Position numbers and translations under genes: made by a program
The notes under the pieces: model-generated
Database searches by the model: none
What the model was told of the DNA's origin: nothing
Seen by the model: only the letters and a program-made list of their open reading frames with translations
Virus record (IMG/VR): IMGVR_UViG_3300031951_000017
Span: 99,929 to 163,928 of that record
DNA: 64,000 nucleotides
Source of the DNA: a virus
Strand: one strand, 5' to 3'
Shown: positions 11,954 to 63,940 of the stretch, in pieces
Layout of the letters: every line of letters begins with the position of its first letter
How positions within the stretch are numbered: position 1 is the first letter of the stretch

Positions 11954-12799
11954 TTATTTCTTTAAAATTTTGTTAATTGCCGACATAAATTCGTCTTTCT
12001 TTCTTTGCATTTGTGAATTAGAAACTTCTTTAGTTTCAATTTTTTTAGCCTTAGCTGGTGCCGGACCTTCACCTGGTCTTGGATTTCTTCCAGGATGTGA
12101 TGGTTTTGGTCTTGTTTCAGTTCCAGGTTTAACTTTTGGTTTAGCTGGAGCTGTCTCAGTTTCAGACATTTCACTCTTACCATAAATGATACGACCAATT
12201 GGTTTATTCATCTTAGGTTTACCAATTAAATTAATAGTTGTTTCCATATCTTTTGATTTTGTTTCAAGCAAAGATACGAAATTTTTCTTAGTGATTCTAC
12301 CTTGTATGTTATTTTTAATCAAGTTCTCAAATTTAGACTCAAGAATTGTCATATAAGGATTTTTACCCTCATTAACATCTTGTTTAACTTGTTTAACACA
12401 TCTTTCATATTTATTTTTTTGTTTTGCTGACCACTCACTTCTTTCAGTAGTTTTAAACTCTTTACCTAGTTGTGCTGTACAAATAGCCCAAGGGTTATAT
12501 TTCGATTTCTTTTTCTTTTTACCCTCTGACATTTCACCATCTTTGATTACTTTGTTTTTAGGCGCTTCAGATTTACCTGACTTTTGTAGTACTCTTACTC
12601 CACCACCAGGTGTTGGTGTTACTTCACCATTTGATACATTAACACCCTCACCTTTCTTTTGCATATCTGCAACTTCAGATGCGGTATAATCAGTTATTTT
12701 AACAGTTTGAGTTTTAGTGGTGGCTTCTTGTAATAAAACATTAACAATCTTTTTTAAATCAGATTCGTTAATTTTTAAAATATTTTTATTCTTTTTCAT
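11954..12799 (-). CDS. Basic putative internal head protein with leader (ILKINESDL)
   Basis: Leader motif; shares a 41-aa module with the scaffold protein. Confidence 0.65.
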   Translation of the reverse strand: MKKNKNILKINESDLKKIVNVLLQEATTKTQTVKITDYTASEVADMQKKGEGVNVSNGEVTPTPGGGVRVLQKSGKSEAPKNKVIKDGEMSEGKKKKKSKYNPWAICTAQLGKEFKTTERSEWSAKQKNKYERCVKQVKQDVNEGKNPYMTILESKFENLIKNNIQGRITKKNFVSLLETKSKDMETTINLIGKPKMNKPIGRIIYGKSEMSETETAPAKPKVKPGTETRPKPSHPGRNPRPGEGPAPAKAKKIETKEVSNSQMQRKKDEFMSAINKILKK

Positions 12800-13193
12800 A
12801 AACTAAATTTTTTTCAAATTCAAGGATTAGGTCTCGTTCATAAAGTTTATCTTCAACTTCTTTAAGGGTCATTCCAAAATGAAAGACTAGTCTAGTTATT
12901 CTATCGAAATCTAAATCATCATCCATTTCCCAACCTAAAGCAATAACTTTATCTACAGCATCAAAAAAAGAAAAAAAATCAGAATTTTGAATCAATTCCA
13001 TTTTTAATTTAGAATTCTTCAAAATACCGACTTTTTTTATATGTTCCAATTTTGGTGGTTTTGGGTATCCATTTGCGGGTTTTGAGTCCCAATCTTCACC
13101 TTCACAATTTTTTTCATCACCAAAAATAAATTCATACATAAAGTTACCTTTATAGTCAGAACCTAATTGGTTTATGAAAATTAAATTATTCAC
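12786..13193 (-). CDS. Hypothetical protein
   Basis: 135 aa; overlaps both neighbours by a few nt. Confidence 0.7.
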   Translation of the reverse strand: MNNLIFINQLGSDYKGNFMYEFIFGDEKNCEGEDWDSKPANGYPKPPKLEHIKKVGILKNSKLKMELIQNSDFFSFFDAVDKVIALGWEMDDDLDFDRITRLVFHFGMTLKEVEDKLYERDLILEFEKNLVYEKE

Positions 13194-14469
13194 TAATTTT
13201 ACCAGATTTAGTAACTTTAATTTGTTTATTATTCATTTCAAATACTAAATTACCTTTATTAGTTTTCCCAACAAATCTAACGTTATCGTTTTCGTCAAGT
13301 AACATAATACTTTTTTTCTCTTGTATTGCAGTTTCACAAAGACGAGAAATTTCATTCATAGTTTTATCTTTTACCTTTTCTTGAATAAATTTCTTTTCTC
13401 GTTTGTCAACTTTAAAATATTTTGTTAAAATACTATCAACCTTTGATTCTGTAAACATACCATCCATAATTGATTGTACTTTTTCTTTTGGACTATATCC
13501 CATACTTTTTTTCATCATTGTCCCAGCAACATCTGTTGCCATTCTTGATGCTAACTCTGGCCAACTACCTTCTTCCATTTCACTAGTATTATCTGTTGGT
13601 AAATCTGTTGGAACTTCAGGAATATCTTCGTCAGTAACGTCAACATCCATTTCATCACCCATGTCCATTGACATATCACCGATTTCCTCATCTTCAAATT
13701 TAGCAATAATATCATCCTTATCGTCTTGAGATAATTTGGTTAAATCAATTGCTGATAAAATTGTATTGATTACGTATTTGATATCTTTGTCAGACAATTT
13801 ATCTTCGTCTTGTAAATCTCTCATTTTTTGAGTTGCCTTACCAAGAAGTTTTTGTACTACTCTAAAAGAACCAGGGATATTTGAGTCTTCAGTGTCACCA
13901 CTTTCTTCAGAACCCGTGTCATCCATAGGTGGAGTAGGGATTTCTTCAGAACCCATATCATCCATAGGTGGTGTCGGAATTTCTTCAGAACCCATATCAT
14001 CCATAGGTGGGACAGGAGTTTCATCAGGACCCATATTATCCATAGGTGGGGCAGGAACATTCTCTACCTCAGGTAAGTTTTCGGATGGACTAAAATTTTT
14101 TTTTTGTTTTAATACATATTTTGTATCTTCCGAAAATAAAGATAAACCTTTTTCATTACCATAATTTTCATTAAGTTCTTTAGCAATGATATTTAATCTT
14201 TTAAGTGCTTGAGAATAAGAACTAAAATATTTTCTTTCTTGGATTGGTTCTCTATAATCAATCGTATTTTCACTTACGGTTGATTTAATGATATAACCAT
14301 TTTTTTCTCTTACAATATGGTAAGTGTTACCATCCGCTAATAATTTAGTATACTCTGAAGTATTTTCATTGACGTTAGAATTATTTTTATAATTAGCTAT
14401 TTCAATAATTCTCTTAATTTTGTCGTCTCCTTGAAGTTTCTCACTTCCTAACGGTCTTAAATCTGACAT
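13186..14469 (-). CDS. Acidic putative prohead core protein with PPMDDMGSEEIPT repeats
   Basis: 427 aa, acidic centre, many xxE sites. Confidence 0.65.
   Translation of the reverse strand: MSDLRPLGSEKLQGDDKIKRIIEIANYKNNSNVNENTSEYTKLLADGNTYHIVREKNGYIIKSTVSENTIDYREPIQERKYFSSYSQALKRLNIIAKELNENYGNEKGLSLFSEDTKYVLKQKKNFSPSENLPEVENVPAPPMDNMGPDETPVPPMDDMGSEEIPTPPMDDMGSEEIPTPPMDDTGSEESGDTEDSNIPGSFRVVQKLLGKATQKMRDLQDEDKLSDKDIKYVINTILSAIDLTKLSQDDKDDIIAKFEDEEIGDMSMDMGDEMDVDVTDEDIPEVPTDLPTDNTSEMEEGSWPELASRMATDVAGTMMKKSMGYSPKEKVQSIMDGMFTESKVDSILTKYFKVDKREKKFIQEKVKDKTMNEISRLCETAIQEKKSIMLLDENDNVRFVGKTNKGNLVFEMNNKQIKVTKSGKISE
13903..14050 (-). repeat. 39-nt tandem repeat (~4 copies) encoding PPMDDMGSEEIPT
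   Basis: Repeated ttcttcagaacccatatcatccataggtgg units. Confidence 0.85.
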
Positions 14470-14484
14470 ATCTTTATTTTATTT

Positions 14485-14895
14485 TTACGAGTTTAATCCG
14501 TTAAATCCACCTAGGACTACGGAGTTCATTTGGATTACATCCACATTAGCATTATTTGTCCAAATAGCATGATTAACAGTTTTGGCACTAACACCAACAT
14601 TTTGATTCTCATCATTACATACTATTTGACAATATCTGTAATTTGTTCCTGCTGAAATAGTGTCCCTAGAATTATCACATTCATTACAATCATCAAAAGG
14701 ACCTGAGGCAAAAATTATTGATGATGAGGGTGTTGTACCTGTTGTTAATTTGGCACACCCACCAAACACACCATTACTATATTGTTGTAATTGAGTGTAG
14801 TAGAATTTATCGAGAGTTAAACTCCCGTCAACTGCTTGATTTGAAACAATTACTTGCCCTGAATCACAACCTGAAAATGCGTAATATGTTGCCAT
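14485..14895 (-). CDS. Cys-rich hypothetical protein, probable virion surface protein
   Basis: MATYYAFSGCD...DDCNEC...; TATTTAT box 14908-14916. Confidence 0.6.
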   Translation of the reverse strand: MATYYAFSGCDSGQVIVSNQAVDGSLTLDKFYYTQLQQYSNGVFGGCAKLTTGTTPSSSIIFASGPFDDCNECDNSRDTISAGTNYRYCQIVCNDENQNVGVSAKTVNHAIWTNNANVDVIQMNSVVLGGFNGLNS

Positions 14896-14917
14896 TTATT
14901 TTTTCTTTATAAATATA

Positions 14918-16033: not shown

Positions 16034-18046
16034 ATGATAGAGTCAATGGACAATGACAAAAACAAGAATCAGGGGAAATCTGATTCATCAACAACTCCCG
16101 CTTTAGATAATTTTAGTAGGGACTTAATTAAATTGGCCGAACAGGGTAAATTGGACCCCGTTGTTGGTCGAGAAAAAGAAATTTTGAGAATTGCTCAAAT
16201 TCTTTCTCGTAGAAAGAAAAACAATCCAATCATTATTGGTGAACCTGGTTGTGGTAAAACCGCTCTAGTTGAGGGATTGGCTATGAAAATTCACCAAGGT
16301 GAGTGTCCTAGAAATTTAATGGACAAACGAATTTTATCTTTGGACATGACATCAATTGTTGCGGGAACAAAATATCGTGGACAATTTGAAGAAAGGATGA
16401 AAGTAGTTATTGAAGAACTTCAGGCCAACCCTGATATTATTGTGTTCATTGATGAGATTCATACAATAGTGGGTGCTGGAAACACAACAGGTTCTTTAGA
16501 TGCTTCAAATATCTTTAAACCAGCTTTAGCCCGTGGTGAGATTCAGTGTATTGGTGCCACGACTCTTGATGAGTATAGAAAGAACTTTGAAAAGGATGGT
16601 GCATTAGAAAGACGTTTTCAAAAGGTAGTCGTTGACCCATCTTCAGCTGAAGAAACTTTACAGATTCTTAAAAACATTAAAGACAAATACGAAACATTTC
16701 ATAAGGTAATTTTTACTGAAGAAATTCTTAATATTTGTGTCCGTTTGGCTGAGAGATATATCACCGACAGAGAATTTCCTGATAAGGCAATTGACATTTT
16801 GGACGAGGTTGGTGCTCGTAGTCAAGTTGAGATAAAGACTCCGGCAGTGATTGAGGACTTGAAAGCCGAGGCTGATGGAATCAAACAAGAAAAAATTCAA
16901 GTGGTTAAAAGTCAAAAATACGAGGAGGCCGCGGAACTAAGAGATAAGGAGAGAAAAGTTCTTTTAAAATTGGATAACGAGAAAAAGAAATTTGAACAAT
17001 CCCTTTTGAAAAAGAAAAAAACAATCCCAATTGAACTAGTCTATGAAGTAGTTTCAAACATGACGAAAATTCCATTGTCTAAACTTTCTTTAGATGATTC
17101 AAAATCATTAATCAATCTTGAAGAAACTTTATCGGGTAAAGTTATTGGTCAGGAAGATGCCGTTAAACGAATTTCAAAAGCTATACGTAGAAATCGTTTG
17201 GGGATTAAAGACCCAAATAAACCAATCGGGTCGTTTATTTTCTTGGGGTCAACAGGTGTTGGTAAAACATATTTGGCAAAACAATTGGCTAGGGAGATAT
17301 TTGGAAGTGATGAAAACTTAATCCGAGTTGATATGTCGGAATACCAGGAAAAACACTCAATATCTAAATTAATTGGGGCACCTCCTGGATATGTTGGATA
17401 TGACCAAGGTGGACAACTTACCGAACAAATTAAAAATAAACCTTATTGTGTTATTTTGTTCGATGAAATTGAGAAAGCCAACAAAGATGTATTCTCATCT
17501 TTACTTCAGGTTTTAGATGACGGACACATGACAGATGGTTTAGGTAGAAAAATTAATTTCAAGAATTGTTTGATTATTATGACATCAAACCTAGGAATTA
17601 AAAAATTACAAGATTTCGGGTCTAGTGTTGGTTTTAGTACTTCACAAAGTTCTTATAGTGCTGAGGAAAATAGAAAGAACATGCTTCAAAAAGAACTTAA
17701 AAATTTCTTTAGTCCAGAATTCCTAAACAGAATAGACGACGTAGTGATTTTCAACTCACTCAAAGAAGAACACATTGAGAGTATTGCTAAAATAGAGTTG
17801 GACAAACTAACTAAGAGATTGATGGAGATGAAATTTGATGTTAAATTTGATGAGAGTGTTGTAAAATATGTATCTAAGAATGGGTATGATGAACTTTATG
17901 GTGCACGTCCTTTAAAAAGAGCCATACAAGATAAATTAGAAGATTATATCTCTGATGAAGTTCTAAAGGGTAACATCGTTGAGAATGGTCATTACACTCT
18001 ATCAATCAAAGATGATGAAATCCAATTAATGGGTATTGTAATGTGA
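16034..18046 (+). CDS. clpC: ClpC-type AAA+ unfoldase lacking the N-terminal Clp-repeat domain
   Basis: D1 [25 protein letters not shown]; UVR-type middle domain [11 protein letters not shown]; D2 [17 protein letters not shown]; VGF loop; starts only ~20 aa before D1. Confidence 0.92.
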
Positions 18047-18071
18047 AAAAGGGAGGTTAACCTCCCTTTTT
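18046..18071. terminator. Bidirectional intrinsic terminator
   Basis: AAAAAGGGAGG-ttaa-CCTCCCTTTTT between convergent genes. Confidence 0.88.
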
Positions 18072-19482
18072 ACATTGCTTCTAATTTTGATTGAAGTTCT
18101 TCTGAATCTTCAATATTTTTACTTTTTAGTAATTCAGCTAATTTTCTAGATGTCATTCTATCCATTTTACCAGTTGAACTACTTAATCCATTATCTTTTT
18201 GGAATTTACTTAATGCGGTTTTAGTTTCGGGACCAAACTTGCCATCTGCACCATATTTTGGTAGTGAATACCCTAACTTCATTAAAGCGTTCTGTATTGT
18301 CACCGCATTATCGTTAACTGAATATTGTTTAGTGTCTCCTTGATATTCTGAAACTTCCTCTTGCATAAAGGCCAAAGATTCCTCAGATGTCATGTTTGGG
18401 TCTAAGTCTTCAAATTTATCGAGCATTGCCGAATCAAAGTCACCACTTGAAGTTAAAAAGTCTGCAAATCTTTTCATAAATAAAGGAACTGCAACAGTAT
18501 ATCCTCTTCTACCCCAAGGTGCTCCAACCGCATTTTTAATAAATGTTTCAGCTGGTAACATCATTTTTTGACCTTTTCCAAATAAAACTTGTACACCCGA
18601 ATCACTTATATTTAAAATTTTGGCAGTTGTTGCCTTACCATTTTTACCAACATATCTATAACTTTTCCCAGTAATAAATCCTAGTTTTCGCATAACTTTG
18701 ACAGGATTTGCAATTGGTTTTGCCATTCTAACAAATGAATAAAATCTATCTTTTAAATTTTTAGATAGAGTTTGTAATCCTTTCTTAATAGAAGTCTTAC
18801 CTGCAGTTTTACTAGTTGTTTTACCTGCCGCTGGAATTAATTTTTGAAATATTTGTCTAGCTCTTACTGCAAACCTTGAGAAAAAACCTCCTACCTTACT
18901 TGCATATTTACCTAAAAGTTTTTTACCTAATGTACTATTAACTGCCTTACCGATATATGCTGGAATTTTAACTAAAACTTCCTCTAAAATTCTACCAACA
19001 ACTCTTAAAGCAATTAGAACAGGTTTAGTTAAAGTTTTAACTGAACCACTAACAAAAGCTTTTAATGCTGGAGCAACCGCTTGTAATTGACCAGGTAATA
19101 CCCCAAATGCAAAAGTAATTGCGGCCATTAAGTATAAATTATCAGTCTCTTCCTCTGATTTAAATTGTGCTTCTACTATATAACTCAATGCATGAACAAT
19201 ATCGACAATTGCGCCTGAACCTGGTACAAAATAATCAACACCTGCGGAAACTAAATCAACACCAGCATGTATAATATCACTTAAACTCCAATCCTCATTA
19301 ATTGGGACTATGTCACCTGTTTGAATGTTATAAGCAGTACCTTCGTATACTAAATACTTGTGGTCATTAGTTATTTTACAAGATAATAATTTAGTTAAAG
19401 GTGTTATAGAATTTTCATCTATTGGATTATATAGGTTTAAAATTCTTTGTTTTTCGGATTCATTTAATAAAATTCTTGGCAT
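18070..19482 (-). CDS. Leader-bearing protein with hydrophobic helical segment and C-terminal peptidoglycan-binding (PG_binding_1) domain
   Basis: N-term RILLNESEKQRILNLY; C-term IQNALMKLGYSLPKYGADGKFGPETKTALSKFQKDNGL. Confidence 0.8.
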   Translation of the reverse strand: MPRILLNESEKQRILNLYNPIDENSITPLTKLLSCKITNDHKYLVYEGTAYNIQTGDIVPINEDWSLSDIIHAGVDLVSAGVDYFVPGSGAIVDIVHALSYIVEAQFKSEEETDNLYLMAAITFAFGVLPGQLQAVAPALKAFVSGSVKTLTKPVLIALRVVGRILEEVLVKIPAYIGKAVNSTLGKKLLGKYASKVGGFFSRFAVRARQIFQKLIPAAGKTTSKTAGKTSIKKGLQTLSKNLKDRFYSFVRMAKPIANPVKVMRKLGFITGKSYRYVGKNGKATTAKILNISDSGVQVLFGKGQKMMLPAETFIKNAVGAPWGRRGYTVAVPLFMKRFADFLTSSGDFDSAMLDKFEDLDPNMTSEESLAFMQEEVSEYQGDTKQYSVNDNAVTIQNALMKLGYSLPKYGADGKFGPETKTALSKFQKDNGLSSSTGKMDRMTSRKLAELLKSKNIEDSEELQSKLEAM

Positions 19483-33601: not shown

Positions 33602-35479
33602 TTAATATTCAATATATTTCCCATTTTTATATGTGTAAAAATATTCCTTACCATTGGTATCTAATGCTATGTAATATTTTACTCCATTTATAACTTCAGT
33701 ATTTACTGTTTTTAGGTCATTAATTTCATTCCCCCAACCAGCTGGTGATTTTAGAAAACTCTTAAATTCATCTAAAGTCGTACCATAAGTTCCACTATAA
33801 GTTTCACTTTGTTTTTCTACTGGAGTTTCATCAGTGTCTAATAATTTAGACTCACCTTTATTTATTTTTTCTTCAGCGGACTTTTTAATTTTTTCCATCC
33901 CCTCACCTGCCTTTTTTTGTAGTTCCTCTAATTCTTCTTTGAATTTAAACCCCTCTTCTTTGGTCATTGGTCTATTCTCATATTTATGAGTTATACTATA
34001 TAACATTGCCCCAATGTTATCAGTAAAACCTGGAATTGCGACTTTTAAATCGGCAACATTTGACACGGTGTATCCTAACATGTCTGATAAAAATCCAGTA
34101 AATCCACCAATACTCTTACCTAATTCAGTATTACCCATTTCATTTTTTTCTTCACTACTATGACTATTGTGCCAAGACATTGCTTGATTTTTAACCCAAT
34201 CTCTATCTTTAAAATATGTAGCATCTTCTAACCAAAGCCCAAGTAAATCAGTCGCATAATCACAAAAACCATAAACAAACGCTAATGATAACCAAGATAC
34301 CCCCCATTCCTTCCCAACACTAAAAACCGCTTGAGGCATTCCTACAACTTTTGAGTATTTTTTAAATCCTTCCCATCCTTTTGTTTGTCCGGTAAGAAAC
34401 CATCTTCTAAATTCTTTAAATTCTTCTCCTGTAAAAATTTTACTCCATTTTTTCAACCGAGAACTTTCATATTTTGTGATTGACTTTCCAAACCATCTCC
34501 AAGGTAACACAATTTCAGCAATCTGAGACCATAATTTTCCTTTACGTGTCATTAAACTACCATATTCTTTTTTCCAAGATTCTAAAGACGTACCATCTAA
34601 TAATGATGCAGCCCTTTTATACCCCTCTTCACTTGAAACCATACTTTTTAATTTGTAATTTGGTACATTAACATCTATCCAATTATCAATGACTTTAAAA
34701 TTAGTTTTATCTTTATTAGTTAGTGTTGTTAAATTGTCACCAATTTTACTTAATAAATTTGTAATAACTTCCCCGTCTGTTTGTCCATCTAATGTTTTAA
34801 TCATTCTTAAAGTCTCATCAATCAATTCGTCTTGTGATTTCATCATATCTGAAACCCCTGTTGCAAATTTTCGCATATTTTTAAAATATGAACCCAATCC
34901 TTTTGCACGATATAGTTTTTCTAATTCTCTTAATTCTTGTTGAGTTAATGGTCTTAAATCAGTCCATTTTTTAGCTGCCGCTCTAGTTGAGGCTCCGGCT
35001 CCTTGGGTCACTTGTTTTGCGACCTCGTCCATATAATCTGAAACTTCTTTTTTGAGTATATCTTTAACTCCTGTAAATTGGGTGTTCACATTAGTTTCAA
35101 TCCAATTGTCTGTATTTGATTTAACAGCATTTACGTCAGCTCCATTCCTAATTAAATCCCCAAAACTTGTTTTCAATGAAGATATTAATTGTTGTTCTTG
35201 TGAATTTAATGTTGCTAAAACTTTTGGGGCTACGTATTGTAGCAGTTCATCTGACTCGTCACACAATTTTGCAATAATGGTAATCGCATCATTATCACTT
35301 GTAACATTTCTTAACTGATTAAATAAGTTATCAAAATTTGAGGAAACTCTACCTACTTTACTACTAAATTTAGAAACTACGTCAGTGGCCAAACTAACAT
35401 AACTCTCGGTCAAAAGATGTCGAGTCATAATAGTTTTTATTCTTTGTACTTCTGAGATTACAATGTTATTGTCTTGCAT
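33602..35479 (-). CDS. Large hypothetical protein with hydrophobic segment, probable virion internal protein
   Basis: Leader VISEVQRIKTIM..LLTE; TATTTAT box 35495-35503 inside the upstream gene; hydrophobic WGVSWLSLAFVYGF. Confidence 0.7.
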   Translation of the reverse strand: MQDNNIVISEVQRIKTIMTRHLLTESYVSLATDVVSKFSSKVGRVSSNFDNLFNQLRNVTSDNDAITIIAKLCDESDELLQYVAPKVLATLNSQEQQLISSLKTSFGDLIRNGADVNAVKSNTDNWIETNVNTQFTGVKDILKKEVSDYMDEVAKQVTQGAGASTRAAAKKWTDLRPLTQQELRELEKLYRAKGLGSYFKNMRKFATGVSDMMKSQDELIDETLRMIKTLDGQTDGEVITNLLSKIGDNLTTLTNKDKTNFKVIDNWIDVNVPNYKLKSMVSSEEGYKRAASLLDGTSLESWKKEYGSLMTRKGKLWSQIAEIVLPWRWFGKSITKYESSRLKKWSKIFTGEEFKEFRRWFLTGQTKGWEGFKKYSKVVGMPQAVFSVGKEWGVSWLSLAFVYGFCDYATDLLGLWLEDATYFKDRDWVKNQAMSWHNSHSSEEKNEMGNTELGKSIGGFTGFLSDMLGYTVSNVADLKVAIPGFTDNIGAMLYSITHKYENRPMTKEEGFKFKEELEELQKKAGEGMEKIKKSAEEKINKGESKLLDTDETPVEKQSETYSGTYGTTLDEFKSFLKSPAGWGNEINDLKTVNTEVINGVKYYIALDTNGKEYFYTYKNGKYIEY

Positions 35480-42274: not shown

Positions 42275-43042
42275 TTAGGCTAAGTTATCCATTATACCCT
42301 CAATCTTATTAGCACTTCTAGCAACCGCACTTTCTTTTCTAGAATCTATAGCTAAGTCCCTTAATTCTTCCCTAGATGTTACACCATCTTTGACTGCTTT
42401 ATTAATTTTTTCGGCAAATTTTTTAAAAAATCCAGGACCATTCCAACTAGCATATATAAAATGGAATAATAATGGGTTGTCTGAATTTACAATTTGTCTA
42501 GCTCCGTCAGTTAAATATTTTTCTGATAAACTAGTGTAATGAGGTTTCATAATTTTAACAACTAAGTCTCTTAATTGATTTTCTAATTCACCACCCCTAT
42601 AACCATGTTTCCAAACATCCTTTGTTTTGTTTTTATCAATTATCGACCAAAACTCAACACCCGCTGGTGAAGTATTTAAATTACCACCATGTTTCCTATC
42701 AATACCAAACATAGTTTCTCCTGACCTACCCATAGCTCTTTTATAATGCCATTCAGGATTATAATATCCCCCTTCTATTTTATTAATGACCAATTTAGTC
42801 ATCTCATCAAAATTTCCTTGTGTTGTTGGTGAAATGTCTACACCTAATTCATTTTTATTTTTAGTATTAGGTTTAATTTTGTCATTATTTTTAACATTGA
42901 AGATGTTTTTACTGATGTCGTCAGCATTTATTTCTTTACCCATCATTAAACCTACGATGTCTTTTGCCAAATCTTCGTTCATAGGTAATTTAGATATTTC
43001 TCTAATTCGATTAATTTCTGATAAAATTTTTTTTTGATTCAT
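42275..43042 (-). CDS. Leader-bearing GH108-like (EGGY) lysozyme-family protein
   Basis: IEGGYYNP...GETMFGID; start MNQKKILSEINRIREI at 43042. Confidence 0.7.
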   Translation of the reverse strand: MNQKKILSEINRIREISKLPMNEDLAKDIVGLMMGKEINADDISKNIFNVKNNDKIKPNTKNKNELGVDISPTTQGNFDEMTKLVINKIEGGYYNPEWHYKRAMGRSGETMFGIDRKHGGNLNTSPAGVEFWSIIDKNKTKDVWKHGYRGGELENQLRDLVVKIMKPHYTSLSEKYLTDGARQIVNSDNPLLFHFIYASWNGPGFFKKFAEKINKAVKDGVTSREELRDLAIDSRKESAVARSANKIEGIMDNLA

Positions 43043-46437: not shown

Positions 46438-47436
46438 TTATTCAAATTTAATGTGAACATAATTTCCTCTATTACCCAAACCTTTTAATATGTATGGTGT
46501 TGATTTAAGTTGTGGGATTACCCCGACCAAATCATCGTAAGTGTGTTTTGCTCTTGCTTTTGATAATTGTAGATTTCCAGTTCTATCATCGTTATTACCA
46601 AATACTTCATCGTATTCAGTAATCTCTTTCCACTTACCATTGTTACAATCATTATCCTTACAACCTGCAGGCATTCTAGATGTTGACGCTTCAATAGTTA
46701 CACGATTAATTTGTCCACCTTTCTTAATGAACTCATTAATTGAGTTAAGAAACGACGCTCTTTTAAGATTCTTGGGTCTACTTATATTCTCTTCAAAAAA
46801 TTCACCTATATTGTAAGTCTTAGGTAATTTTAAGTTATTCTTAGAAATACCAAAATCTTCTAGGTTTAATTCCATTCCAGTCTCAGCAATCTTTAATTTA
46901 ATACCATAAGATTTTTTACCTTCAAAATATGATTCTTGGTAAATAATTTTATTATTTGGTCTTGCAGATATTGGTTCCATATCTTCATCAGAAGGTTGGT
47001 TGAAATCGGTTGACACCCACATACCTGCGATAACAGGTCTTCTTTTAGTTAACGAATAGAATACGATAGGAATATGGTGACCGATATTAATTTGGTCTTT
47101 CATTTTATCCCCGTAATATACCGCTTTTTTCATTTCGTCTGTTAGTCCAAAATTCAATAAATCTTGAACCTTACTTTCAGGATTTTCAACTTCCTTGGTT
47201 TGTTGTGTCCAAAGAATTGATATTTCATCAGATGATGGGAATTTAACATTCATATTAGGTTTTAATTCTTCGTCACCTTTCTTTTCCGCCAAATACATAT
47301 TTTCACCATCAAAATAAAATATGTGACCATAAAGTGAAAAATACTTTCCTTTTTGACGAGATTCATCTTCTTCTTTGATTACTCTTTTAACGATTTTTTC
47401 AATATCGTTGTAAGTTAGTTTTATTATTTTACTCAT
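46438..47436 (-). CDS. Leader-bearing protein with OmpA-like C-terminal motif
   Basis: IIKLTYNDIEKIVKRVIKE leader; VTIEASTS...NLQLSKARA. Confidence 0.65.
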   Translation of the reverse strand: MSKIIKLTYNDIEKIVKRVIKEEDESRQKGKYFSLYGHIFYFDGENMYLAEKKGDEELKPNMNVKFPSSDEISILWTQQTKEVENPESKVQDLLNFGLTDEMKKAVYYGDKMKDQINIGHHIPIVFYSLTKRRPVIAGMWVSTDFNQPSDEDMEPISARPNNKIIYQESYFEGKKSYGIKLKIAETGMELNLEDFGISKNNLKLPKTYNIGEFFEENISRPKNLKRASFLNSINEFIKKGGQINRVTIEASTSRMPAGCKDNDCNNGKWKEITEYDEVFGNNDDRTGNLQLSKARAKHTYDDLVGVIPQLKSTPYILKGLGNRGNYVHIKFE

Positions 47437-47442: not shown

Positions 47443-48402
47443 TTATTTTTTGGGAGGGAAAATTGCGTTATAATAATCGGTAGGACTTGATGGTAAAACT
47501 TCATCCTTACTTATGTTTCTATTTGGAAATGAACTTTGTTGTGTATTTTCTCCTCCTGTTGTAGTTCCCGCAGTTCCTGTTGTAGTTCCCGCAGTTCCTG
47601 TTGTAGTTCCCGCAGTTCCTGTTGTAGTTCCCGCAGTTCCTGTTGTAGTTCCCTCAGTTCCTGTTGTAGTTCCCTCAGTTCCTGTTGTAACTCTAGTCTT
47701 AGTTTTTATGTTACCATCTACAGAACCTTCTATTGTGGTGTTCTGACCTTTTTGAGTATATTCGTCATATAAACTATTATTACTAGCAACTTCTTTTTCA
47801 AATTTAGCGATAATATCGTCAACATCAGTTTGGGTTATTTTGAATTCACTTACGTTTTTTCCTTTTTTGTCTCTTACGTTTTGAAAATATAGTGCTAAAT
47901 TAGAATATTTAGTTAGGTTATCAAAATCACCACCTGGTTTGTTTGCCGATAGACTTAATGACAAAGCATAATACATTAACGCATTTGGATTATACTTTAA
48001 TTTAATCGGTTCAGCTGTAGTTGGGGTATCCGGGGTTGTAGTCGTAGTATTTGGTGCTGTAGTGTTATTTTTGTCAGTACTTGTACCGCCAAAATCATTT
48101 ATTACCAATTTTTCACCAGCATAAATTGTATTAGGGTTACCTGATTTTAAATTTTTTTTGTTATCCTCATACATTTTTTTCCAATCAACTCCAAAAGCTT
48201 TGGCTATTTTAGTCAAATATTCATTTTTAGCGATTGTGTATGTTTTTGTTGCGGGGTCCCAACTACCTTGTAGTCCGCCAGGTGCGGCATCTTCATTTAA
48301 GATATTATCCCATTTTTGCTCCATTTCAAATAATGTCTTATTTCTTTCAAATGACATTAATTCATATATTCTAGAGAAATCTTTTTTATTTATAGTGTTC
48401 AT
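47443..48402 (-). CDS. LysM domain protein with Thr/Gly repeats
   Basis: YTIAKNEYLTKIAKAFGV.WK.MY..N......NPNTIYAGEKLVI. Confidence 0.85.
   Translation of the reverse strand: MNTINKKDFSRIYELMSFERNKTLFEMEQKWDNILNEDAAPGGLQGSWDPATKTYTIAKNEYLTKIAKAFGVDWKKMYEDNKKNLKSGNPNTIYAGEKLVINDFGGTSTDKNNTTAPNTTTTTPDTPTTAEPIKLKYNPNALMYYALSLSLSANKPGGDFDNLTKYSNLALYFQNVRDKKGKNVSEFKITQTDVDDIIAKFEKEVASNNSLYDEYTQKGQNTTIEGSVDGNIKTKTRVTTGTEGTTTGTEGTTTGTAGTTTGTAGTTTGTAGTTTGTAGTTTGGENTQQSSFPNRNISKDEVLPSSPTDYYNAIFPPKK
47554..47689 (-). repeat. 21-nt tandem repeat (~6.5 copies) encoding TTGT(A/E)GT
   Basis: tcctgttgtagttccc(g/t)cagt units. Confidence 0.92.
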
Positions 48403-50661: not shown

Positions 50662-50691
50662 TTGATGTTATTTAATTATTATTCCAAAGTT

Positions 50692-51060: not shown

Positions 51061-51618
51061 TTAAACGCCGCCAGCTTTCATTCTGTCTCTCAAGTCGGTA
51101 TTTCTTTTTCCAGTTCTACCACACTTAGCCTTTTTACTTCTTCTTTTCTGAACTTTTCTTCTTTTACGATAATTGATACCTTGTTCAGTTATTTCACCAC
51201 CTTCACTTTCGTCTGCAGCTAAAAGTCCCGCACCAATTACAGCTGCCTCATTTTTAAGTTCTTCAGGGATTTGTAAACCACCAACAGGTTGTCCCTTTAG
51301 TACATTTCCAATAGCACTTTCTAATTCAGTAGTTGTTCCTAAATTGTTAAAGAAATCAAAAACCTTTGATAGAATTCCTGTTTTATCAGTATCAGGAACA
51401 CACATTGGGTTGTCTCCGGTATTTACATAATCACCGATATTAAACTGAGCTCCGTTATCCTTTAGAATGTCTTGAGTTAATGACATAATACTTGAAACAT
51501 CAACTTTTGGTTGAACTTCTGGTGCTTCATTAATTGTAACTTTTGATTCTAAAAATCTTTTTTCTAGTCTTTCGTTTGCCTCAGAAAGATGTCTTCTTTT
51601 ACTAAAACTTGTATTCAT
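51061..51618 (-). CDS. Leader-bearing protein with highly basic C-terminus
   Basis: SFSKRRHLSEANERLEKRFLE leader; Arg/Lys-rich tail after ITE site. Confidence 0.7.
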   Translation of the reverse strand: MNTSFSKRRHLSEANERLEKRFLESKVTINEAPEVQPKVDVSSIMSLTQDILKDNGAQFNIGDYVNTGDNPMCVPDTDKTGILSKVFDFFNNLGTTTELESAIGNVLKGQPVGGLQIPEELKNEAAVIGAGLLAADESEGGEITEQGINYRKRRKVQKRRSKKAKCGRTGKRNTDLRDRMKAGGV

Positions 51619-52630: not shown

Positions 52631-53156
52631 ATCTAAATGCTACAGAATAAGAATCTAAAGTATAATTTTTTTGATTTACTAACTTTTCTAGTTCCTCTCT
52701 TTTTTCTTTAAAATTGTCACCGTCTTTATACCCAATACCTTTAAATGTAATTTTTATTCTTGGGTCATCCCAAACAGCCGAAAATTCACATTCACCACCA
52801 ATTGTGTCTTTAAGTAAACTATTTATTTGATTTTCAATATGGTCAAGATAGTCAAAGTTTTTAAAAGCAAACCCAAATCTATAGTTTTCACTAATAAATG
52901 GTATTTTTTCATGAGCCGATTGTATTACCCTTTCAAATTTACCTGTTGGTGAATAGAAAAATCGTCCGAGGTTATCTTTAGGGTTTTTATATAATTCTGA
53001 CGCATATTTTTCATCATATGATGGTGTATTCTTATCCATTTTCTCACAATCAACATGTAATTGCACCACTTCAGGATTTGTAATTCTGAAATCATAGTCG
53101 TTATTTTTAAATTTCAAGTTAAGAAATCTTAGAAGAGCTTTATCTTGTGTTGTCAT
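52623..53156 (-). CDS. Hypothetical protein
   Basis: 177 aa; overlaps neighbours. Confidence 0.7.
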   Translation of the reverse strand: MTTQDKALLRFLNLKFKNNDYDFRITNPEVVQLHVDCEKMDKNTPSYDEKYASELYKNPKDNLGRFFYSPTGKFERVIQSAHEKIPFISENYRFGFAFKNFDYLDHIENQINSLLKDTIGGECEFSAVWDDPRIKITFKGIGYKDGDNFKEKREELEKLVNQKNYTLDSYSVAFRYG

Positions 53157-54379
53157 AATTTTTTCTTACTGAAGGAGTATTGTTTAATCTCTTTGGTAAA
53201 TTTTGGTTTGGTTTTCTTATACAACTTATGATATAAGTCAAAATCAATTATGGATGAAGAACTCTCACCAATTAGTGAATATAATTTACTCAATTTCTTA
53301 ATCATTTTATCCGCAACTGATGACATATATTTTATCTCGTGTTTAAAGAAATCGTCAGGCTCACCTTCAAATCTTCTAAGTCTCGCTAAATACTTCTTAA
53401 AGAATTTTATTTTTTCTTCTCTATTATCTTCTTTACCAATTAATTGGAAAATCAAACTTCGTATTTGACTATCATCATTTAATCCTAAATATTCAAAAAC
53501 CCCTTCTCCCTTCCAGTTAGTTATATTAATATAAACTATTTTTAATACCATCCTAATTACGTCATTTTTAGACATAAACCTATCGTAGGCATTAACTTGT
53601 TTTAAAAATCCAACACAATCAGTATATTCATTTCTTAAATCACTAATTAATTGTTCAAAACTATAATCCCTAATTTCTAGTAAATTTTTAATGGTCTCGT
53701 CTTGGAAAAAATAATCATAAAAATTCTCCTTGTCAACCTCGTCATATTTCATTCTAGAAAATATTTCACTAGGTCTTACTAGATTTTCAACCAATGTTGT
53801 ATAGTAAAGATTTATCAAAAAATTATCAATTGCATTAATACCAAATCTTCTATCTGAATAGGTACTATATTCCATAGTATCTGTAACTTTTGGTCTGTCG
53901 TATTTAAAATGGTTATATGTATGGGTTAGTTCATGTGAAAATGTACTAATTGTATCTCGTTTATTTTCAGTAAAGTAATTAATCAAGTCTTCACCAGAAA
54001 CATCCTCAGGAACGGTAATAACTATATTTAACTTAATGGTCCCTTCAAACGATTTATATTCCATCCTGATTTCATCATCACTCAATCTAATCTGTTGTAC
54101 GTTTTGAAATGCAACAGGATGTATTTCAGTGAACTCTAAAAAATTAAATCCAATAACTACCTCATCAATATCTAATTCATTTATATTATCATTAATATAA
54201 ATGTCTATGGTACTATTCTCTAATTCATCTTTAGTCGCGTCGGGATTAATACCATCTATAAGTCCATCAAATATTTTTAAGGACACTTCATGTATATTAT
54301 CAGGTACACCGACTTTTTCAGTCAGTATTCTTTCTACAATTTTTCTTATTGTACTTTCATTTATTTTTACAATTTTCAT
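53153..54379 (-). CDS. Leader-bearing protein with HExxH zinc-metalloprotease motif
   Basis: IVKINESTIRKIVERILTE leader; FSHELTHTY. Confidence 0.7.
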   Translation of the reverse strand: MKIVKINESTIRKIVERILTEKVGVPDNIHEVSLKIFDGLIDGINPDATKDELENSTIDIYINDNINELDIDEVVIGFNFLEFTEIHPVAFQNVQQIRLSDDEIRMEYKSFEGTIKLNIVITVPEDVSGEDLINYFTENKRDTISTFSHELTHTYNHFKYDRPKVTDTMEYSTYSDRRFGINAIDNFLINLYYTTLVENLVRPSEIFSRMKYDEVDKENFYDYFFQDETIKNLLEIRDYSFEQLISDLRNEYTDCVGFLKQVNAYDRFMSKNDVIRMVLKIVYINITNWKGEGVFEYLGLNDDSQIRSLIFQLIGKEDNREEKIKFFKKYLARLRRFEGEPDDFFKHEIKYMSSVADKMIKKLSKLYSLIGESSSSIIDFDLYHKLYKKTKPKFTKEIKQYSFSKKKL

Positions 54380-57037: not shown

Positions 57038-57394
57038 TTACCAGTCTATGCCTGGACCAAACTCATTATCATTTATGATTTCATTTTCTATAATAGTTAC
57101 TGATGGTAGAAAATTATTTATGTAATATTCTAATTCATTAAGAAAGTTATCAAAATCGTTTCTAGTTCCATTTATATATACGTTCACATATACTTTAATC
57201 ATACCTTTTGATAAATCAATTCTATCAATTTCAATCCTGTCCACAGAAGTTACTTCATGTATTTCGTCCATTGCATCCATACCCCAGTCTTCAGCTTCCA
57301 TTTTTATTTTTTTAACCGACTTATCAATAAGTTTTTGTATTGGTTTATACAACTTATCTGATTGCATTTCAGTTATTATTATTTTTTTTACCAT
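57038..57394 (-). CDS. Leader-bearing hypothetical protein
   Basis: KKIIITEMQ leader. Confidence 0.7.
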   Translation of the reverse strand: MVKKIIITEMQSDKLYKPIQKLIDKSVKKIKMEAEDWGMDAMDEIHEVTSVDRIEIDRIDLSKGMIKVYVNVYINGTRNDFDNFLNELEYYINNFLPSVTIIENEIINDNEFGPGIDW

Positions 57395-58211: not shown

Positions 58212-58550
58212 TTAATCTTCACCTAACTCAAATTCTAAAGATTTAATTTCATTTGATAATTCTTTGATTTGAGTGTAGTAATCTCTAGCCATATCAAAAA
58301 TATCACCTTCTTCATTGTCTAAGATTTCCTTTAATCCATACATAATGTCTCGGATACCATATCCAATTCTCTCTTCTAAATATGACTCTACAAAATCTAA
58401 CGCTTCTTGTAAAACAGATTCTAATTCATTTTCAGTTCTTTCTAATTCGGCCATTAATTCATCTTTACTAGATGGGCCATCCATTTCTGAAATAATTCTT
58501 TTTATAACATTGGTCAATTGAGACTCAGTTAATTTTATCTTTTTATTCAT
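58212..58550 (-). CDS. Leader-bearing acidic coiled-coil protein
   Basis: KKIKLTESQLTNVIKRIISE leader. Confidence 0.72.
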   Translation of the reverse strand: MNKKIKLTESQLTNVIKRIISEMDGPSSKDELMAELERTENELESVLQEALDFVESYLEERIGYGIRDIMYGLKEILDNEEGDIFDMARDYYTQIKELSNEIKSLEFELGED

Positions 58551-61172: not shown

Positions 61173-61189
61173 ATATCAATAAATATATG

Positions 61190-62005: not shown

Positions 62006-62440
62006 TTAAGCAATTTTTTTCTTACCTGGAGTTTGTCCTTCTTCAGGTAACCCACTTTCACCTAAATCAATATAGACTGGTACATTTAAATTAGAATTAC
62101 ATTTTGTTTTATAGTAATCTTTAACCGCATTTGTAAAATAATTTTTGTCATTCTCATAAAATCTATATGTACTACCTTCTCTTCCTCCTTCTAGAACGAT
62201 TGGTTTCCCACATTGAACATTTTGATTATCTAAAAAATCTTTCATATTATCCCATCCAGTAGGTGCAGTGTCGTATTTAGTTTGTTCATTAATATTTCTA
62301 ACAAATGGTTTAATTTCACCCGATTTTGCATTGACCAACTTATTAAAGTTTTCAATTACAATTTTCTTTCCACCTTCTTGGTGTTGTTCTAGGATAGAAT
62401 TTTTTTCTTCCTCAGATAAGTTATTCAATAAATGTTTCAT
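62006..62440 (-). CDS. Leader-bearing hypothetical protein
   Basis: MKHLLNNLSEEEKNSILEQH leader. Confidence 0.7.
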   Translation of the reverse strand: MKHLLNNLSEEEKNSILEQHQEGGKKIVIENFNKLVNAKSGEIKPFVRNINEQTKYDTAPTGWDNMKDFLDNQNVQCGKPIVLEGGREGSTYRFYENDKNYFTNAVKDYYKTKCNSNLNVPVYIDLGESGLPEEGQTPGKKKIA

Positions 62441-62507: not shown

Positions 62508-62939
62508 TCACGGTCTACGTAATTGACCTGATAAAAAAGAATTTACAATAATTGTATCTGGGTCATCTATTCCAAATTTTTGACTAACCCACAAAGATAT
62601 AACTTGTCCTGTTTCATATAATTTTTTATCATTAATATTATGTGAACCAACAAAAATGTTAGCAATTTTTTTAACAAAATGTAAATCAACATAACATGTT
62701 TCTAGTTGGATGTCATATGCAAATTCTGCAAAATTATCTTTTTCGGATTTTAAATAAAAAACTATACCATTTTCAACAGTAAAAACTAAGTTACGTAACT
62801 CAATAAATTTAAAAATTTGTTTTTGTATTTGTTTGTTATTAAGGATTGACCTCTTATCAATATTTAAAGTCTCGTTGAGAACTTTACCTATGATAGTTAC
62901 TAGGTCGGATTCTGCCAATTTTAAAATTTTCTTACCCAT
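62508..62939 (-). CDS. Leader-bearing hypothetical protein (paralog of 63623..63940)
   Basis: KILKLAESDLVTIIGKVLNE; IFKF..L..L...C.......I...F...I..WV. Confidence 0.7.
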   Translation of the reverse strand: MGKKILKLAESDLVTIIGKVLNETLNIDKRSILNNKQIQKQIFKFIELRNLVFTVENGIVFYLKSEKDNFAEFAYDIQLETCYVDLHFVKKIANIFVGSHNINDKKLYETGQVISLWVSQKFGIDDPDTIIVNSFLSGQLRRP

Positions 62940-62943
62940 AACA

Positions 62944-63246
62944 TTAACATTTACCTGAATATGGTCTTATGTCGACATAAATACCAAATTTTGCAAGCAC
63001 AAATTCTCTCGCGTTTTTTATAATTTTATTTAATACATCTTTACCACCAAATCCATTTTCTGTCATAACACTATTAACCCATTGGTTATCAATTTTTAAT
63101 GAAATGACAGGAAAATCTTCAATATCCTCATTATGTGGATATTCAAATTTACAAATTTCATAAAAATCCGCAAATTGGGAGTTTAAATCCAAAACAATTT
63201 GTTTTGAAAAAGCTTTAAACTGAGATTCTGTTATCAAATATTTCAT
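62944..63246 (-). CDS. Leader-bearing hypothetical protein
   Basis: MKYLITESQF. Confidence 0.72.
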   Translation of the reverse strand: MKYLITESQFKAFSKQIVLDLNSQFADFYEICKFEYPHNEDIEDFPVISLKIDNQWVNSVMTENGFGGKDVLNKIIKNAREFVLAKFGIYVDIRPYSGKC

Positions 63247-63248
63247 TA

Positions 63249-63620
63249 TTAACCAAAATTTGCTATTACGACCCTAGTGACCTTTTTATTTGGGAACAAA
63301 GATTCAAAAACATCGGCCATTAGATATTTTTTATTAACCAACCATATTGGATGTGGAAAATGAACGGAGTACTTATCATCAATTGACTTATCATAGAATA
63401 ACTCGCCTGATAATTCATTAAACATTGCAATTTCAACATTCTTTTTATTATAAAGGTGAATACGATTATCATTTTCACTATATGAATCGAATATTTTTTC
63501 AACCGCAGGAATTAATACACCCTTAATTTTGTCATACTGGCTCTCATATTCAGCATCCATCCAATGTCTATCGAGTTCGGAGATTAATTTAAACTGAGAT
63601 TCTGTTATAACAAATTTCAT
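63249..63620 (-). CDS. Leader-bearing hypothetical protein
   Basis: MKFVITESQFKLISE. Confidence 0.72.
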   Translation of the reverse strand: MKFVITESQFKLISELDRHWMDAEYESQYDKIKGVLIPAVEKIFDSYSENDNRIHLYNKKNVEIAMFNELSGELFYDKSIDDKYSVHFPHPIWLVNKKYLMADVFESLFPNKKVTRVVIANFG

Positions 63621-63622
63621 TA

Positions 63623-63940
63623 TTAATAAGAATTATTTTTGGGAATGTGGTATGGTGGTATCATTGTTTTGGTAATTTCCACTTGTAAAGTATTCCCAAC
63701 CCATTTACCGATAATTGTTTCAGCAATAGATTCGTCAATTGAGAAAAAATTGGATACCTCCGTAATTAATTCATGGTAGATAAAACATCTTCCATCTTTT
63801 TTAACATATATGATATATTTGTTATTTTCCGAATTGACAAAATGGATTGCATTATTTTCATCAACAATGTTCAATCTTTTTAAATTAAGATATTTAAAAA
63901 TTACTTTATCTAATTGTAATTCTGTTATTATATATTTCAT
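63623..63940 (-). CDS. Leader-bearing hypothetical protein
   Basis: MKYIITELQLDKVI; TATTTAT box 63946-63954. Confidence 0.72.
   Translation of the reverse strand: MKYIITELQLDKVIFKYLNLKRLNIVDENNAIHFVNSENNKYIIYVKKDGRCFIYHELITEVSNFFSIDESIAETIIGKWVGNTLQVEITKTMIPPYHIPKNNSY

What the first reader, a model, noticed from the sequence alone, without database searches (positions are those of the whole stretch)
11954..63940. Candidate capsid-cargo targeting system: shared cleavable N-terminal leaders on ~20 unrelated proteins
Seen: proteins with unrelated bodies start with the same short motifs. Type A (K-x-I-x-[IL]-[TN]-E-S-[QD]-L): 12799 ILKINESDL, 39218 IIITENQ, 47436 IIKLTYNDI, 54379 IVKINESTI, 57394 IIITEMQ, 58550 IKLTESQL, 62939 ILKLAESDL, 63246 YLITESQF, 63620 FVITESQF, 63940 YIITELQL. 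Type B (E.EK..IL..H/Y): 19482, 38556, 62440. Type C (E..RI..[LI]M): 35479, 36755, 43042, 48402. Many leaders end in [IL]-x-E (VLLQE, RILTE, RIISE, KVLNE, KLISE, NILNE), the same signal as HLINE|A in the MCP. Most of these genes sit behind the TATTTAT box or in operons headed by it. Host-promoter metabolic genes (PPK2, glycosylase, HNH, peptidase) lack the leader. Known: T4 gp21 cleaves after [IL]xE, and T4 internal proteins are loaded into the prohead by a ~10-aa N-terminal capsid-targeting sequence. Inference: this phage uses a different, much expanded address tag to load a payload (HExxH protease, GH108-like, LysM, PG-binding, membrane and small unknown proteins) into the head, remove it with the encoded protease, and inject the proteins as early effectors or anti-defence factors.
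Basis: partly seen in the sequence, partly recalled or inferred. Interest (0 to 1): 0.85.

Follow-up and report, generated by a model that had tools for sequence, protein, structure and literature searches.

The report
Shared head-loading leader tags on phage proteins
About twenty unrelated proteins of this uncultured T4-like jumbo phage start with a few interchangeable short tags, each ending in the cutting motif of the phage's head protease; they most likely load proteins into the capsid as T4 does with three internal proteins, but neither packaging nor cutting has been measured.

Summary
Every coordinate and motif was found.

- **Type A** is two families. A long 21-residue tag (K-I-I-K-L-T-E-S-D-L-x-K-I-V-K-R-V-I-x-E) sits on 5 window proteins and 1 elsewhere on the contig. 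A short MK[YF]-x-I-T-E-x-Q form sits on 5.
- **Types B and C** are not separable from chance inside the window. Both are real families in related phages, and a fourth family (D) includes 51061-51618.
- **Spread:** a profile of the long tag finds 3,934 protein clusters in public metagenomes, nearly all at residue 1, on unrelated bodies. Prokaryote genomes almost lack it.

The capsid-loading reading is supported indirectly.

- The phage and all 5 complete relatives encode a T4 gp21-type protease (Peptidase_S77).
- All tag families end in [I/L]-x-E.
- In one orthologous family the tag varies from 5 to 22 residues, yet the junction stays [IL]-x-E (P1 E in 44 of 44).
- [IL]xE is specifically depleted in the bodies of family A and B proteins.

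Packaging, cleavage and injection are untested, and I found no cultured phage with the tag. This scan had already noted the same tags on other genomes. I class it as a new variant of T4's capsid-targeting sequence. Confidence is about 0.6 and interest about 0.7.

The parts
11954..12799 (-). Family A leader protein (281 aa). Leader is residues 1-25, ending VLLQE. The body carries a 48-aa Pro/Lys-rich segment 67% identical to the scaffold protein.
46438..47436 (-). Family A leader protein (332 aa). Leader is residues 1-22, ending RVIKE. Homologs down to 43% identity keep the leader and an [IV]-x-E junction.
53153..54379 (-). Family A leader protein (408 aa). Leader is residues 1-21, ending RILTE. 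The body has invariant HExxH plus E and no known fold.
58212..58550 (-). Family A leader protein (112 aa), leader ending RIISE; acidic helical body.
62508..62939 (-). Family A leader protein (143 aa), leader ending KVLNE.
37116..37454 (-). Possible half-length family A leader (MDIQKIIKLLRQYTDE), grouped with family A by N-terminal clustering.
39218..39838 (+). Family A' (short ITExQ) N-terminus on a 206-aa protein with hydrophobic stretches.
57038..57394 (-). Family A' N-terminus (MVKKIIITEMQ), 118 aa.
62944..63940 (-). Three tandem small genes (100, 123 and 105 aa), each starting MK[YF]xITE[SL]Q (family A').
18070..19482 (-). Family B leader protein (470 aa): MPRILLNESEKQRILNLY, a hydrophobic region and a C-terminal PG_binding_1 domain.
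62006..62440 (-). Family B leader protein (144 aa): MKHLLNNLSEEEKNSILE|QH.
37756..38556 (-). Weak family B-like N-terminus (DKSERENILDLH). Not linked to family B at my threshold.
33602..35479 (-). Resembles clade family C but is not linked to it at my threshold.
35466..36755 (-).
42275..43042 (-).
47443..48402 (-).
51061..51618 (-). Family D leader protein (185 aa): SFSKRRHLSEANERLEKRFLE|S. In relatives this family ends [FL]-L-x-E.
2615..3352 (-). Prohead protease of the T4 gp21 family (Peptidase_S77); the proposed processing enzyme.
648..2231 (-). Scaffold-like acidic protein between protease and MCP; the proposed docking partner (inferred). It has 14 [IL]xE sites against 8.8 expected.
2..613 (-). 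N-terminal part of the T4-like major capsid protein. The propeptide ends HLINE|A, and this junction is kept in a 75%-identical ortholog.
16034..18046 (+). ClpC-like double AAA+ ATPase beside the head module. Present in all 7 leader-carrying genomes tested and absent from 3 leader-less cultured phages. It is a possible alternative partner for the tags.

Best explanation
The tags are modular N-terminal propeptides.

Proposed mechanism:
1. Each tag is a short strand-plus-amphipathic-helix element.
2. The tag binds a phage-encoded part of the prohead core, most likely the scaffold. This brings the attached protein into the assembling head.
3. The tag ends in [I/L]-x-E. The gp21-type protease cuts there during head maturation and frees the mature protein inside the capsid.
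4. Several tag families (A, A', B, C, D) do the same job and are swapped between bodies.
5. Part of the cargo binds or cuts peptidoglycan, so some of it probably leaves with the DNA and acts in the cell envelope at entry.

Shown here: the tags, their modularity, their restriction to phages, the protease gene, the conserved [IL]-x-E junction, and depletion of that motif in the bodies.

Inferred: binding to the core, cleavage, packaging and ejection.
For: 1. The tag is real and N-terminal. The profile finds 3,934 clusters among 1.84 billion representative proteins, almost all starting at residue 1.

2. The tag is modular. In related loci plus this contig, 437 of 1,992 N-termini form one similarity network, and only 2.6% of its links join related bodies. 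Ordinary gene families mostly show nearly all links between related bodies.

3. The end of the tag looks like a cleavage site. The DNA pattern used to collect the tags stopped at the residue before P2. Even so, P1 is E in 98%, P3 is I/L/V in 99%, P2 is variable, and conservation collapses right after E. Families B, C and D also end in hydrophobic-x-E.

4. In the 54-member family of 53153-54379 the leader is a full A tag, a half A tag, an A' tag or a 5-8-residue stub. The junction before the conserved body start (xxGVP) stays the same: P1 E in 44/44 and P3 I/L in 41/44.

5. [IL]xE is depleted in family A+B bodies. O/E is 0.88 (CI 0.77-0.995) against 1.15 (CI 1.10-1.21) in non-leader proteins, with 0 of 2,000 bootstraps overlapping. 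[IL]xD/K/Q/N, [VM]xE and Ex[IL] are not depleted. The 149 global hits replicate this once internal tag copies are masked: O/E 0.82 (CI 0.71-0.94).

6. The protease is Peptidase_S77. It is present in 18 of 21 leader-carrying contigs of 90 kb or more, and in 5 of 5 complete genomes. T4 gp21 cuts after L/I-x-E, and T4 internal proteins use 10-19-residue capsid-targeting sequences (PMC9026906).

7. There are links to the head. 11954-12799 shares a 48-aa segment with the scaffold. In at least four relatives, leader genes sit between the protease and scaffold genes.

8. The tag is virus-specific. The same DNA pattern gives at least 120 stretches in IMG/VR but only 3 in 596 Gb of prokaryote genomes, all on MAG contigs.

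9. In the AF2 model the leader of 53153-54379 has pLDDT 56-66 against 88-98 for the body.

10. The true endolysin (PG_binding_1 plus GH19, 40370-41203) has no tag.
Against: - No virion proteome, N-terminal sequence or packaging assay exists for any tag-bearing phage.
- None of the six cultured and database phages tested carries the tag.
- Co-occurrence with the S77 protease may only reflect that the tag is confined to one T4-like clade.
- The [IL]xE depletion is moderate (about 24%). Family A' shows none (O/E 1.05).
- The tag itself contains a second [IL]xE (L-T-E).
- Some proteins carry internal or tandem tag copies, which T4's sequence does not.
- A PPK2 enzyme carries a C-type tag in one relative.
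- Leader genes are not enriched near head genes. Only 1 of 18 contigs with a located protease has one within 3 kb.
- The tag has no sequence similarity to T4's MKTYQEFIAE.
Confidence: 0.6

Rival explanations
1. The tags are propeptides cut by the head protease, but they are not address labels. They might keep enzymes inactive or help folding until maturation, while entry into the head depends on the bodies or on other parts.
For: The conserved [IL]-x-E junction and the motif depletion speak for cleavage rather than for targeting as such. Stubs of 5-8 residues in the HExxH family seem too short to hold a docking helix. Several bodies are lytic or hydrolytic.
Against: The 20 residues upstream of the site are far better conserved than any body across about 3,900 clusters, which implies one common binding partner. 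Unrelated bodies are unlikely each to have their own way into the prohead. In T4 the same short peptide does both jobs.
Confidence: 0.12
2. The tag is an uncut docking or recognition helix for another phage-encoded partner. The leading candidate is the ClpC-like AAA+ unfoldase at 16034-18046, with the tag acting as a degron or unfolding tag. A membrane-associated assembly site is another possibility.
For: The ClpC-like gene is 69-75% identical in all 7 leader-carrying genomes tested and absent from 3 leader-less cultured phages. Read directly from the sequence, it lacks the usual N-domain and keeps a VGF loop of the kind that docks ClpP. The tag is a basic amphipathic helix. Internal and tandem copies would suit a binding module.
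Against: This reading does not predict the invariant E with I/L two residues before it, the sharp end of conservation after E, or the specific depletion of [IL]xE in the bodies. The Clp co-occurrence is at clade level and so is not specific.
Confidence: 0.15
3. The shared N-termini are by-products of promoter-plus-leader DNA cassettes that recombine, or of selection for efficient translation starts. In this reading the peptide has no function.
For: Earlier notes on other genomes report DNA-identical leader cassettes. Many tagged genes sit directly behind the TATTTAT box.
Against: In this genome the six long tags use different synonymous codons. The amino-acid motif is kept across about 3,900 clusters at 50% identity. 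Conservation is residue-specific and ends exactly at E.
Confidence: 0.04

Closest known systems
Phage T4 capsid targeting sequence (CTS) of internal proteins IPI, IPII and IPIII (and the Alt propeptide), removed by prohead protease gp21
   Same: Both are short N-terminal peptides on otherwise unrelated proteins. Both end in L/I-x-E. A gp21-family protease, a scaffold core and a T4-like MCP propeptide are all present. T4's internal proteins are likewise a diverse set that shares only the targeting sequence (PMC3012670; PMC9026906).
   Different: There is no sequence similarity to MKTYQEFIAE. The tag is 21-29 residues instead of 10-19. There are at least four or five interchangeable tag families. 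Each contig of 95-321 kb carries 1-14 family-A genes, and about 20 genes of all families lie on this 164-kb contig, against T4's three or four. Internal and tandem copies occur. The system is confined to uncultured jumbo phages. Function is untested.
Propeptides of head and ejection proteins in phiKZ-like giant phages (phiKZ, 201phi2-1, SPN3US), cut by gp175/gp245 proteases
   Same: Many head-internal proteins are processed by a gp21-related protease C-terminal to Glu at a three-residue motif. Some propeptides are short, at 20-24 residues (PMC10052503).
   Different: Their motif is S/A-x-E rather than I/L-x-E. Their propeptides are mostly 111-254 residues and are not a shared portable tag. Those phages have virion mass spectrometry; this clade has none.
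Encapsulin cargo-loading peptides (from my own knowledge, not tested here)
   Same: A short conserved peptide on diverse cargo proteins directs them to the inside of an HK97-fold shell.
   Different: They are usually C-terminal, are not removed by a protease, and belong to a bacterial nanocompartment rather than a virus head.

Membership tests
T4-type capsid targeting sequence (CTS) | Located at the extreme N-terminus of otherwise unrelated proteins | tested here: met
   All six HMM hits on the contig start at residues 1-6. In related loci, 202 of 227 hits are N-terminal. The bodies are unrelated.
T4-type capsid targeting sequence (CTS) | Ends in the prohead protease site L/I-x-E | tested here: met
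   P1 is E in 98% and P3 is I/L/V in 99%. In the HExxH family, P1 is E in 44/44 and P3 is I/L in 41/44. Families B, C and D also end in hydrophobic-x-E.
T4-type capsid targeting sequence (CTS) | Genome encodes a gp21-family protease and a T4-like head module | tested here: met
   PF03420 at E=6.7e-24. PHROG hits for MCP, protease and portal. The protease is present in 5 of 5 complete leader-carrying genomes.
T4-type capsid targeting sequence (CTS) | Sequence similarity to the T4 sequence MKTYQEFIAE | tested here: not met
   By direct reading, the consensus MKKIIRLTESDLTRIVKRVINE shares only the terminal I-x-E with the T4 sequence, which I quote from memory. This rules out sequence homology to T4's CTS, but not the same mode of action.
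T4-type capsid targeting sequence (CTS) | Tag is cleaved off by the protease in the prohead | not testable with these tools
   Only indirect evidence exists: specific [IL]xE depletion in the bodies.
T4-type capsid targeting sequence (CTS) | Tag is sufficient to carry a protein into the prohead | not testable with these tools
   This needs a packaging assay or virion proteomics. No cultured phage with the tag was found.
Cellular export or degradation signal used by the host | The same tag occurs on host (cellular) proteins | tested here: not met
   The DNA pattern matches only 3 stretches in 596 Gb of prokaryote genomes, all on MAG contigs, against at least 120 in IMG/VR.

The most novel reading that the evidence does not exclude
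A large clade of uncultured jumbo T4-like phages, probably infecting Bacteroidota, uses a small set of interchangeable, protease-removable address tags to load dozens of different proteins per genome into the capsid. The packaged and ejected proteome, thousands of protein families, could then be read directly from sequence, and the tags could serve as natural handles for loading foreign proteins into phage heads.
Probability: 0.45. Interest if true: 0.85.

Novelty: new variant of a known kind. Interest (0 to 1): 0.7.

Why it matters
- **Predicting cargo:** proteins carried inside phage heads are hard to predict, yet they include the first weapons a phage brings into a cell. If these tags mark such proteins, a simple profile search would list the cargo of a whole, so far uncultured, group of jumbo phages. 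That list runs to about 3,900 protein clusters, nearly all of unknown function.
- **Phage evolution:** it would show that T4's three-protein trick was expanded elsewhere into a general, combinatorial loading system.
- **A reusable test:** the depletion of the protease motif in cargo bodies is a new sequence-only test. It can be applied to other phages with known protease specificity.

Tried and rejected
- **Word-index search** with the leader region of 58212-58550 found only two near-identical orthologs.
- **tblastn** of a 38-aa leader protein against 50,697 phage records gave nothing at E<=1.
- **Profile search of six cultured or database phage records** found no tag in Flavobacterium immuto, Mel-JY01, C48C1, LR756511 or Tenacibaculum PTm1. 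LR756508 gave only weak hits.
- **Literature search** for the motif strings and for capsid-targeting in jumbo or Bacteroidetes phages found no description of this tag.
- **Pfam** gave nothing for any of the ten Type A proteins.
- **Fold search:** the AF2 model of 53153-54379 (pLDDT 85.7) had no Foldseek match at E<=0.001 and no VIA-align match above Z 5.6, so its fold stays unassigned.
- **PDB sequence search** with the MCP N-terminus found nothing. The alignment of LINE|A to T4's gp23 cleavage site therefore rests on my memory of the T4 sequence.
- **Per-protein [IL]xE counts** on this contig are too small to interpret.
- **Rejected explanations:** a nucleotide-level element and a compositional artefact.


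Full report
**What the window is**

The window is the last 64 kb of a 163,928-bp single-contig virus record. CheckV rates the record 56% complete, so the real genome is probably a jumbo phage of about 290 kb. GC content is about 30%.

The left end of the window holds a distant T4-like head module, all on the minus strand:
- major capsid protein (PHROG 138);
- an acidic scaffold-like protein (648-2231);
- a prohead protease (2615-3352; PHROG 207; Pfam Peptidase_S77, E=6.7e-24);
- portal (6993-8807);
- large terminase (8845-10602).

The nearest cultured phages share only 28-41% identity in terminase or portal.

**Checking the observation**

Five window proteins share a 21-residue N-terminal block, K-I-[IV]-K-[LI]-[TN]-E-S-[DQ]-L-x-K-I-[IV]-K-R-[VI]-[IL]-x-E. 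They are 11954-12799, 46438-47436, 53153-54379, 58212-58550 and 62508-62939. A sixth protein lies upstream on the contig at genome 95278-95889.

- An HMM of this block, run on the six-frame translation of the whole contig, hits only these six N-termini, at 30-35 bits. The next best hit scores 10 bits.
- N-terminal 30-residue windows give 20 protein pairs with a local score of 40 or more. Interior windows give 3-5. The excess is almost entirely these six proteins plus true paralogs.
- The copies use different synonymous codons, so the conservation is in the peptide and not in the DNA.
- The bodies are unrelated by BLASTP.

The other five "Type A" genes carry a shorter form, MK[YF]-x-I-T-E-x-Q, which I call A'. 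Types B and C are not distinguishable from background inside the window alone.

**The tag in public data**

A profile of the six leaders was run against 1.84 billion representative proteins. It found 3,934 clusters at E<=0.001. Nearly all of the listed matches start at residue 1, and protein lengths run from about 30 to 750 residues. The consensus is MKKIIRLTESDLTRIVKRVINE.

The same pattern hit only 3 stretches in 596 Gb of prokaryote genomes. All three are MAG contigs, labelled Bacteroidetes, Prevotellaceae and Parcubacteria. The tag is therefore a phage feature and not a cellular signal, and its receptor should be phage-encoded. The MAG labels are a weak hint at Bacteroidota hosts.

Of 21 tag-carrying contigs of 90 kb or more, 18 carry Peptidase_S77, including all 5 rated complete (257-321 kb). 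Each carries 1-14 family-A genes.

None of the six cultured or database phage records tested carries the tag. I found no paper that describes it.

**Modularity and tag families**

I called genes in 1.03 Mb of the IMG/VR loci and added this contig.

- 211 of 1,829 predicted proteins in the loci carry the A tag. Their median length is 128 aa. 202 hits are N-terminal and 25 are internal.
- All-against-all comparison of the first 36 residues gives one network of 437 of 1,992 proteins. Only 2.6% of its links join proteins with related bodies. Ordinary gene families mostly show nearly 100%.
- Community detection separates four groups:
  - A: 213 proteins;
  - A': 131;
  - B, consensus x-I-T-E-E-E-K-x-R-I-L-G-M-H: 42, including 18070-19482 and 62006-62440;
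  - C, consensus N-L-x-E-x-I-x-R-I-x-x-M-M-G: 18.
- A separate family D (S-Y-S-K-I-R-H-I-Q-E-x-N-x-x-L-E-K-R-x-L-x-E) includes 51061-51618.

**Evidence bearing on cleavage**

1. *The tag logo.* The DNA pattern used to collect tags stopped one residue before P2. Even so, P1 is E in 98%, P3 is I/L/V in 99%, P2 is variable, and conservation vanishes after the E.

2. *Other families.* B, C and D each end in hydrophobic-x-E as well.

3. *One orthologous family with many leaders.* The 54 homologs of 53153-54379 share a body that starts xxGVP and holds invariant HExxH plus E. Their leaders differ: a full A tag, a half A tag, an A' tag, or stubs of 5-8 residues. The junction does not differ: P1 is E in 44 of 44 distinct junctions, P3 is I or L in 41 of 44, and P2 takes eight different residues. 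A second family (46438-47436) keeps the full tag and an [IV]-x-E junction down to 43% body identity.

4. *Motif depletion.* [IL]xE is depleted in the bodies of family A and B proteins.
   - O/E is 0.88 (cluster-bootstrap CI 0.77-0.995) against 1.15 (CI 1.10-1.21) in non-tag proteins of the same loci. None of 2,000 bootstrap replicates overlapped.
   - [IL]xD, [IL]xK, [IL]xQ, [IL]xN, [VM]xE and Ex[IL] are not depleted.
   - The 149 proteins from the global search replicate this once internal tag copies are masked: O/E 0.82 (CI 0.71-0.94), with controls at 1.05-1.28.
   - This is what selection against internal cutting by an [IL]xE-specific protease would produce.
   - Family A' shows no depletion (O/E 1.05).

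T4 gp21 cuts after L/I-x-E. T4's internal proteins use 10-19-residue N-terminal capsid-targeting sequences that bind the core and are then removed (PMC9026906; PMC3012670).

The MCP here has a T4-like propeptide ending HLINE|A. That junction is kept in a 75%-identical ortholog while the residues after it vary.

**Links to the head**

- The tagged protein 11954-12799 lies in the head gene block. It shares a 48-residue Pro/Lys-rich segment (67% identity, E=4e-13) with the scaffold.
- In at least four relatives, tagged genes of families A and D fill the slot between the protease and scaffold genes. This is not a general rule: only 1 of 18 contigs with a located protease shows it.
- In the AF2 model of 53153-54379 (mean pLDDT 85.7), the leader is a low-confidence helix (pLDDT 56-66) ahead of a confident body (88-98).

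**What the cargo is**

Pfam names few bodies. Among 82 non-redundant tagged proteins it found PG_binding_1 (5), phage lysozyme, SLT, OmpA and PPK2.

In the window, PG_binding_1 or LysM domains sit behind B and C tags. The canonical endolysin (PG_binding_1 plus GH19, 40370-41203) has no tag.

A and B tags both occur on PG-binding bodies in relatives. This fits proteins that reach the cell wall from the virion.

The HExxH protein has no recognisable fold.

**Caveats**

- Packaging, cleavage and ejection are all inferred.
- Co-occurrence with the protease may be only a clade effect.
- A ClpC-like AAA+ ATPase beside the head module (16034-18046) is 69-75% identical in all 7 tag-carrying genomes tested and absent from three tag-less cultured phages. 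It could be an alternative or additional partner for the tags.
- About a third of the top global hits carry a second or third tag copy, internal or tandem. That list is biased towards multi-copy proteins.
- The PPK2 ortholog of one relative carries a C-like tag, so "metabolic genes lack the leader" is not strict.
- The TATTTAT box precedes many structural genes and 12 of 22 tagged genes, against 37 of 141 others (p=0.011). With my stricter set the association is not significant (p=0.16).

**Earlier notes of this scan**

The scan has reported the same tag families on several other genomes, with the same reading and the same lack of direct proof. One note covers this same contig. I treated these as leads only. 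The junction analysis and the motif-depletion test were done here.

**Verdict**

The capsid-loading interpretation is the best-supported reading, at about 0.6, but it remains unproven. The finding is a new, much expanded variant of the T4 capsid-targeting principle.

Noticed in passing
window 16034-18046 (+); G004:C1:149236-152885 and G015:C1:31844-35493: A ClpC-like double AAA+ ATPase without the usual N-domain, and with a VGF loop, sits beside the head module. It is 69-75% identical in all related jumbo phages tested. In two relatives the gene matches in two pieces about 1.6 kb apart, which suggests an inserted element (intron, intein or homing endonuclease).
   Followed up: partly
window 53153-54379 (-): A 408-aa protein family (54 homologs) has invariant HExxH plus a downstream E. 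It gives a confident AF2 model (pLDDT 85.7) with no match in the PDB. It may be a new zincin-like enzyme carried by these phages.
   Followed up: partly
window 11954-12799 (-) and 648-2231 (-): A 48-residue Pro/Lys-rich basic segment (ETAPAKPKVKPGTE...APAKAKK) is shared at 67% identity between a tagged protein and the scaffold protein.
   Followed up: partly
proteins P0003-P0151 (global hits), e.g. P0010, P0056, P0088, P0024: Many metagenomic proteins carry two or three copies of the tag: tandem at the N-terminus, or internal between two bodies. Some internal copies start with Met, so some may be fused gene calls and others true polyproteins.
   Followed up: partly
window 41219-42274 (+); L018:7206-8972: The polyphosphate kinase 2 (PPK2) gene has a 110-residue N-terminal extension here. 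Its 66%-identical ortholog in a relative starts with a C-type tag (MRNLLTEVSKIKNNMGLTE).
   Followed up: partly
window 4636-6990 (-): A 784-aa protein between the portal gene and a head-module gene consists of Thr/Pro-rich linkers alternating with repeated Cys-containing modules. This matches the mucin-like virion proteins noted earlier on this genome.
   Followed up: no
L099:1433-3392, L115:3691-3975, L070:10136-10432, L079:11077-12222: The slot between the protease (plus a conserved 71-aa gene) and the scaffold gene is a variable site. In different relatives it holds one to three tagged genes of different families. In this window the slot is empty.
   Followed up: partly
window 45073-45882 (-) and 50662-51060 (+): The phage encodes a class II aminoacyl-tRNA-synthetase-like protein (269 aa) and a dihydrofolate reductase. 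Both lack a tag.
   Followed up: no
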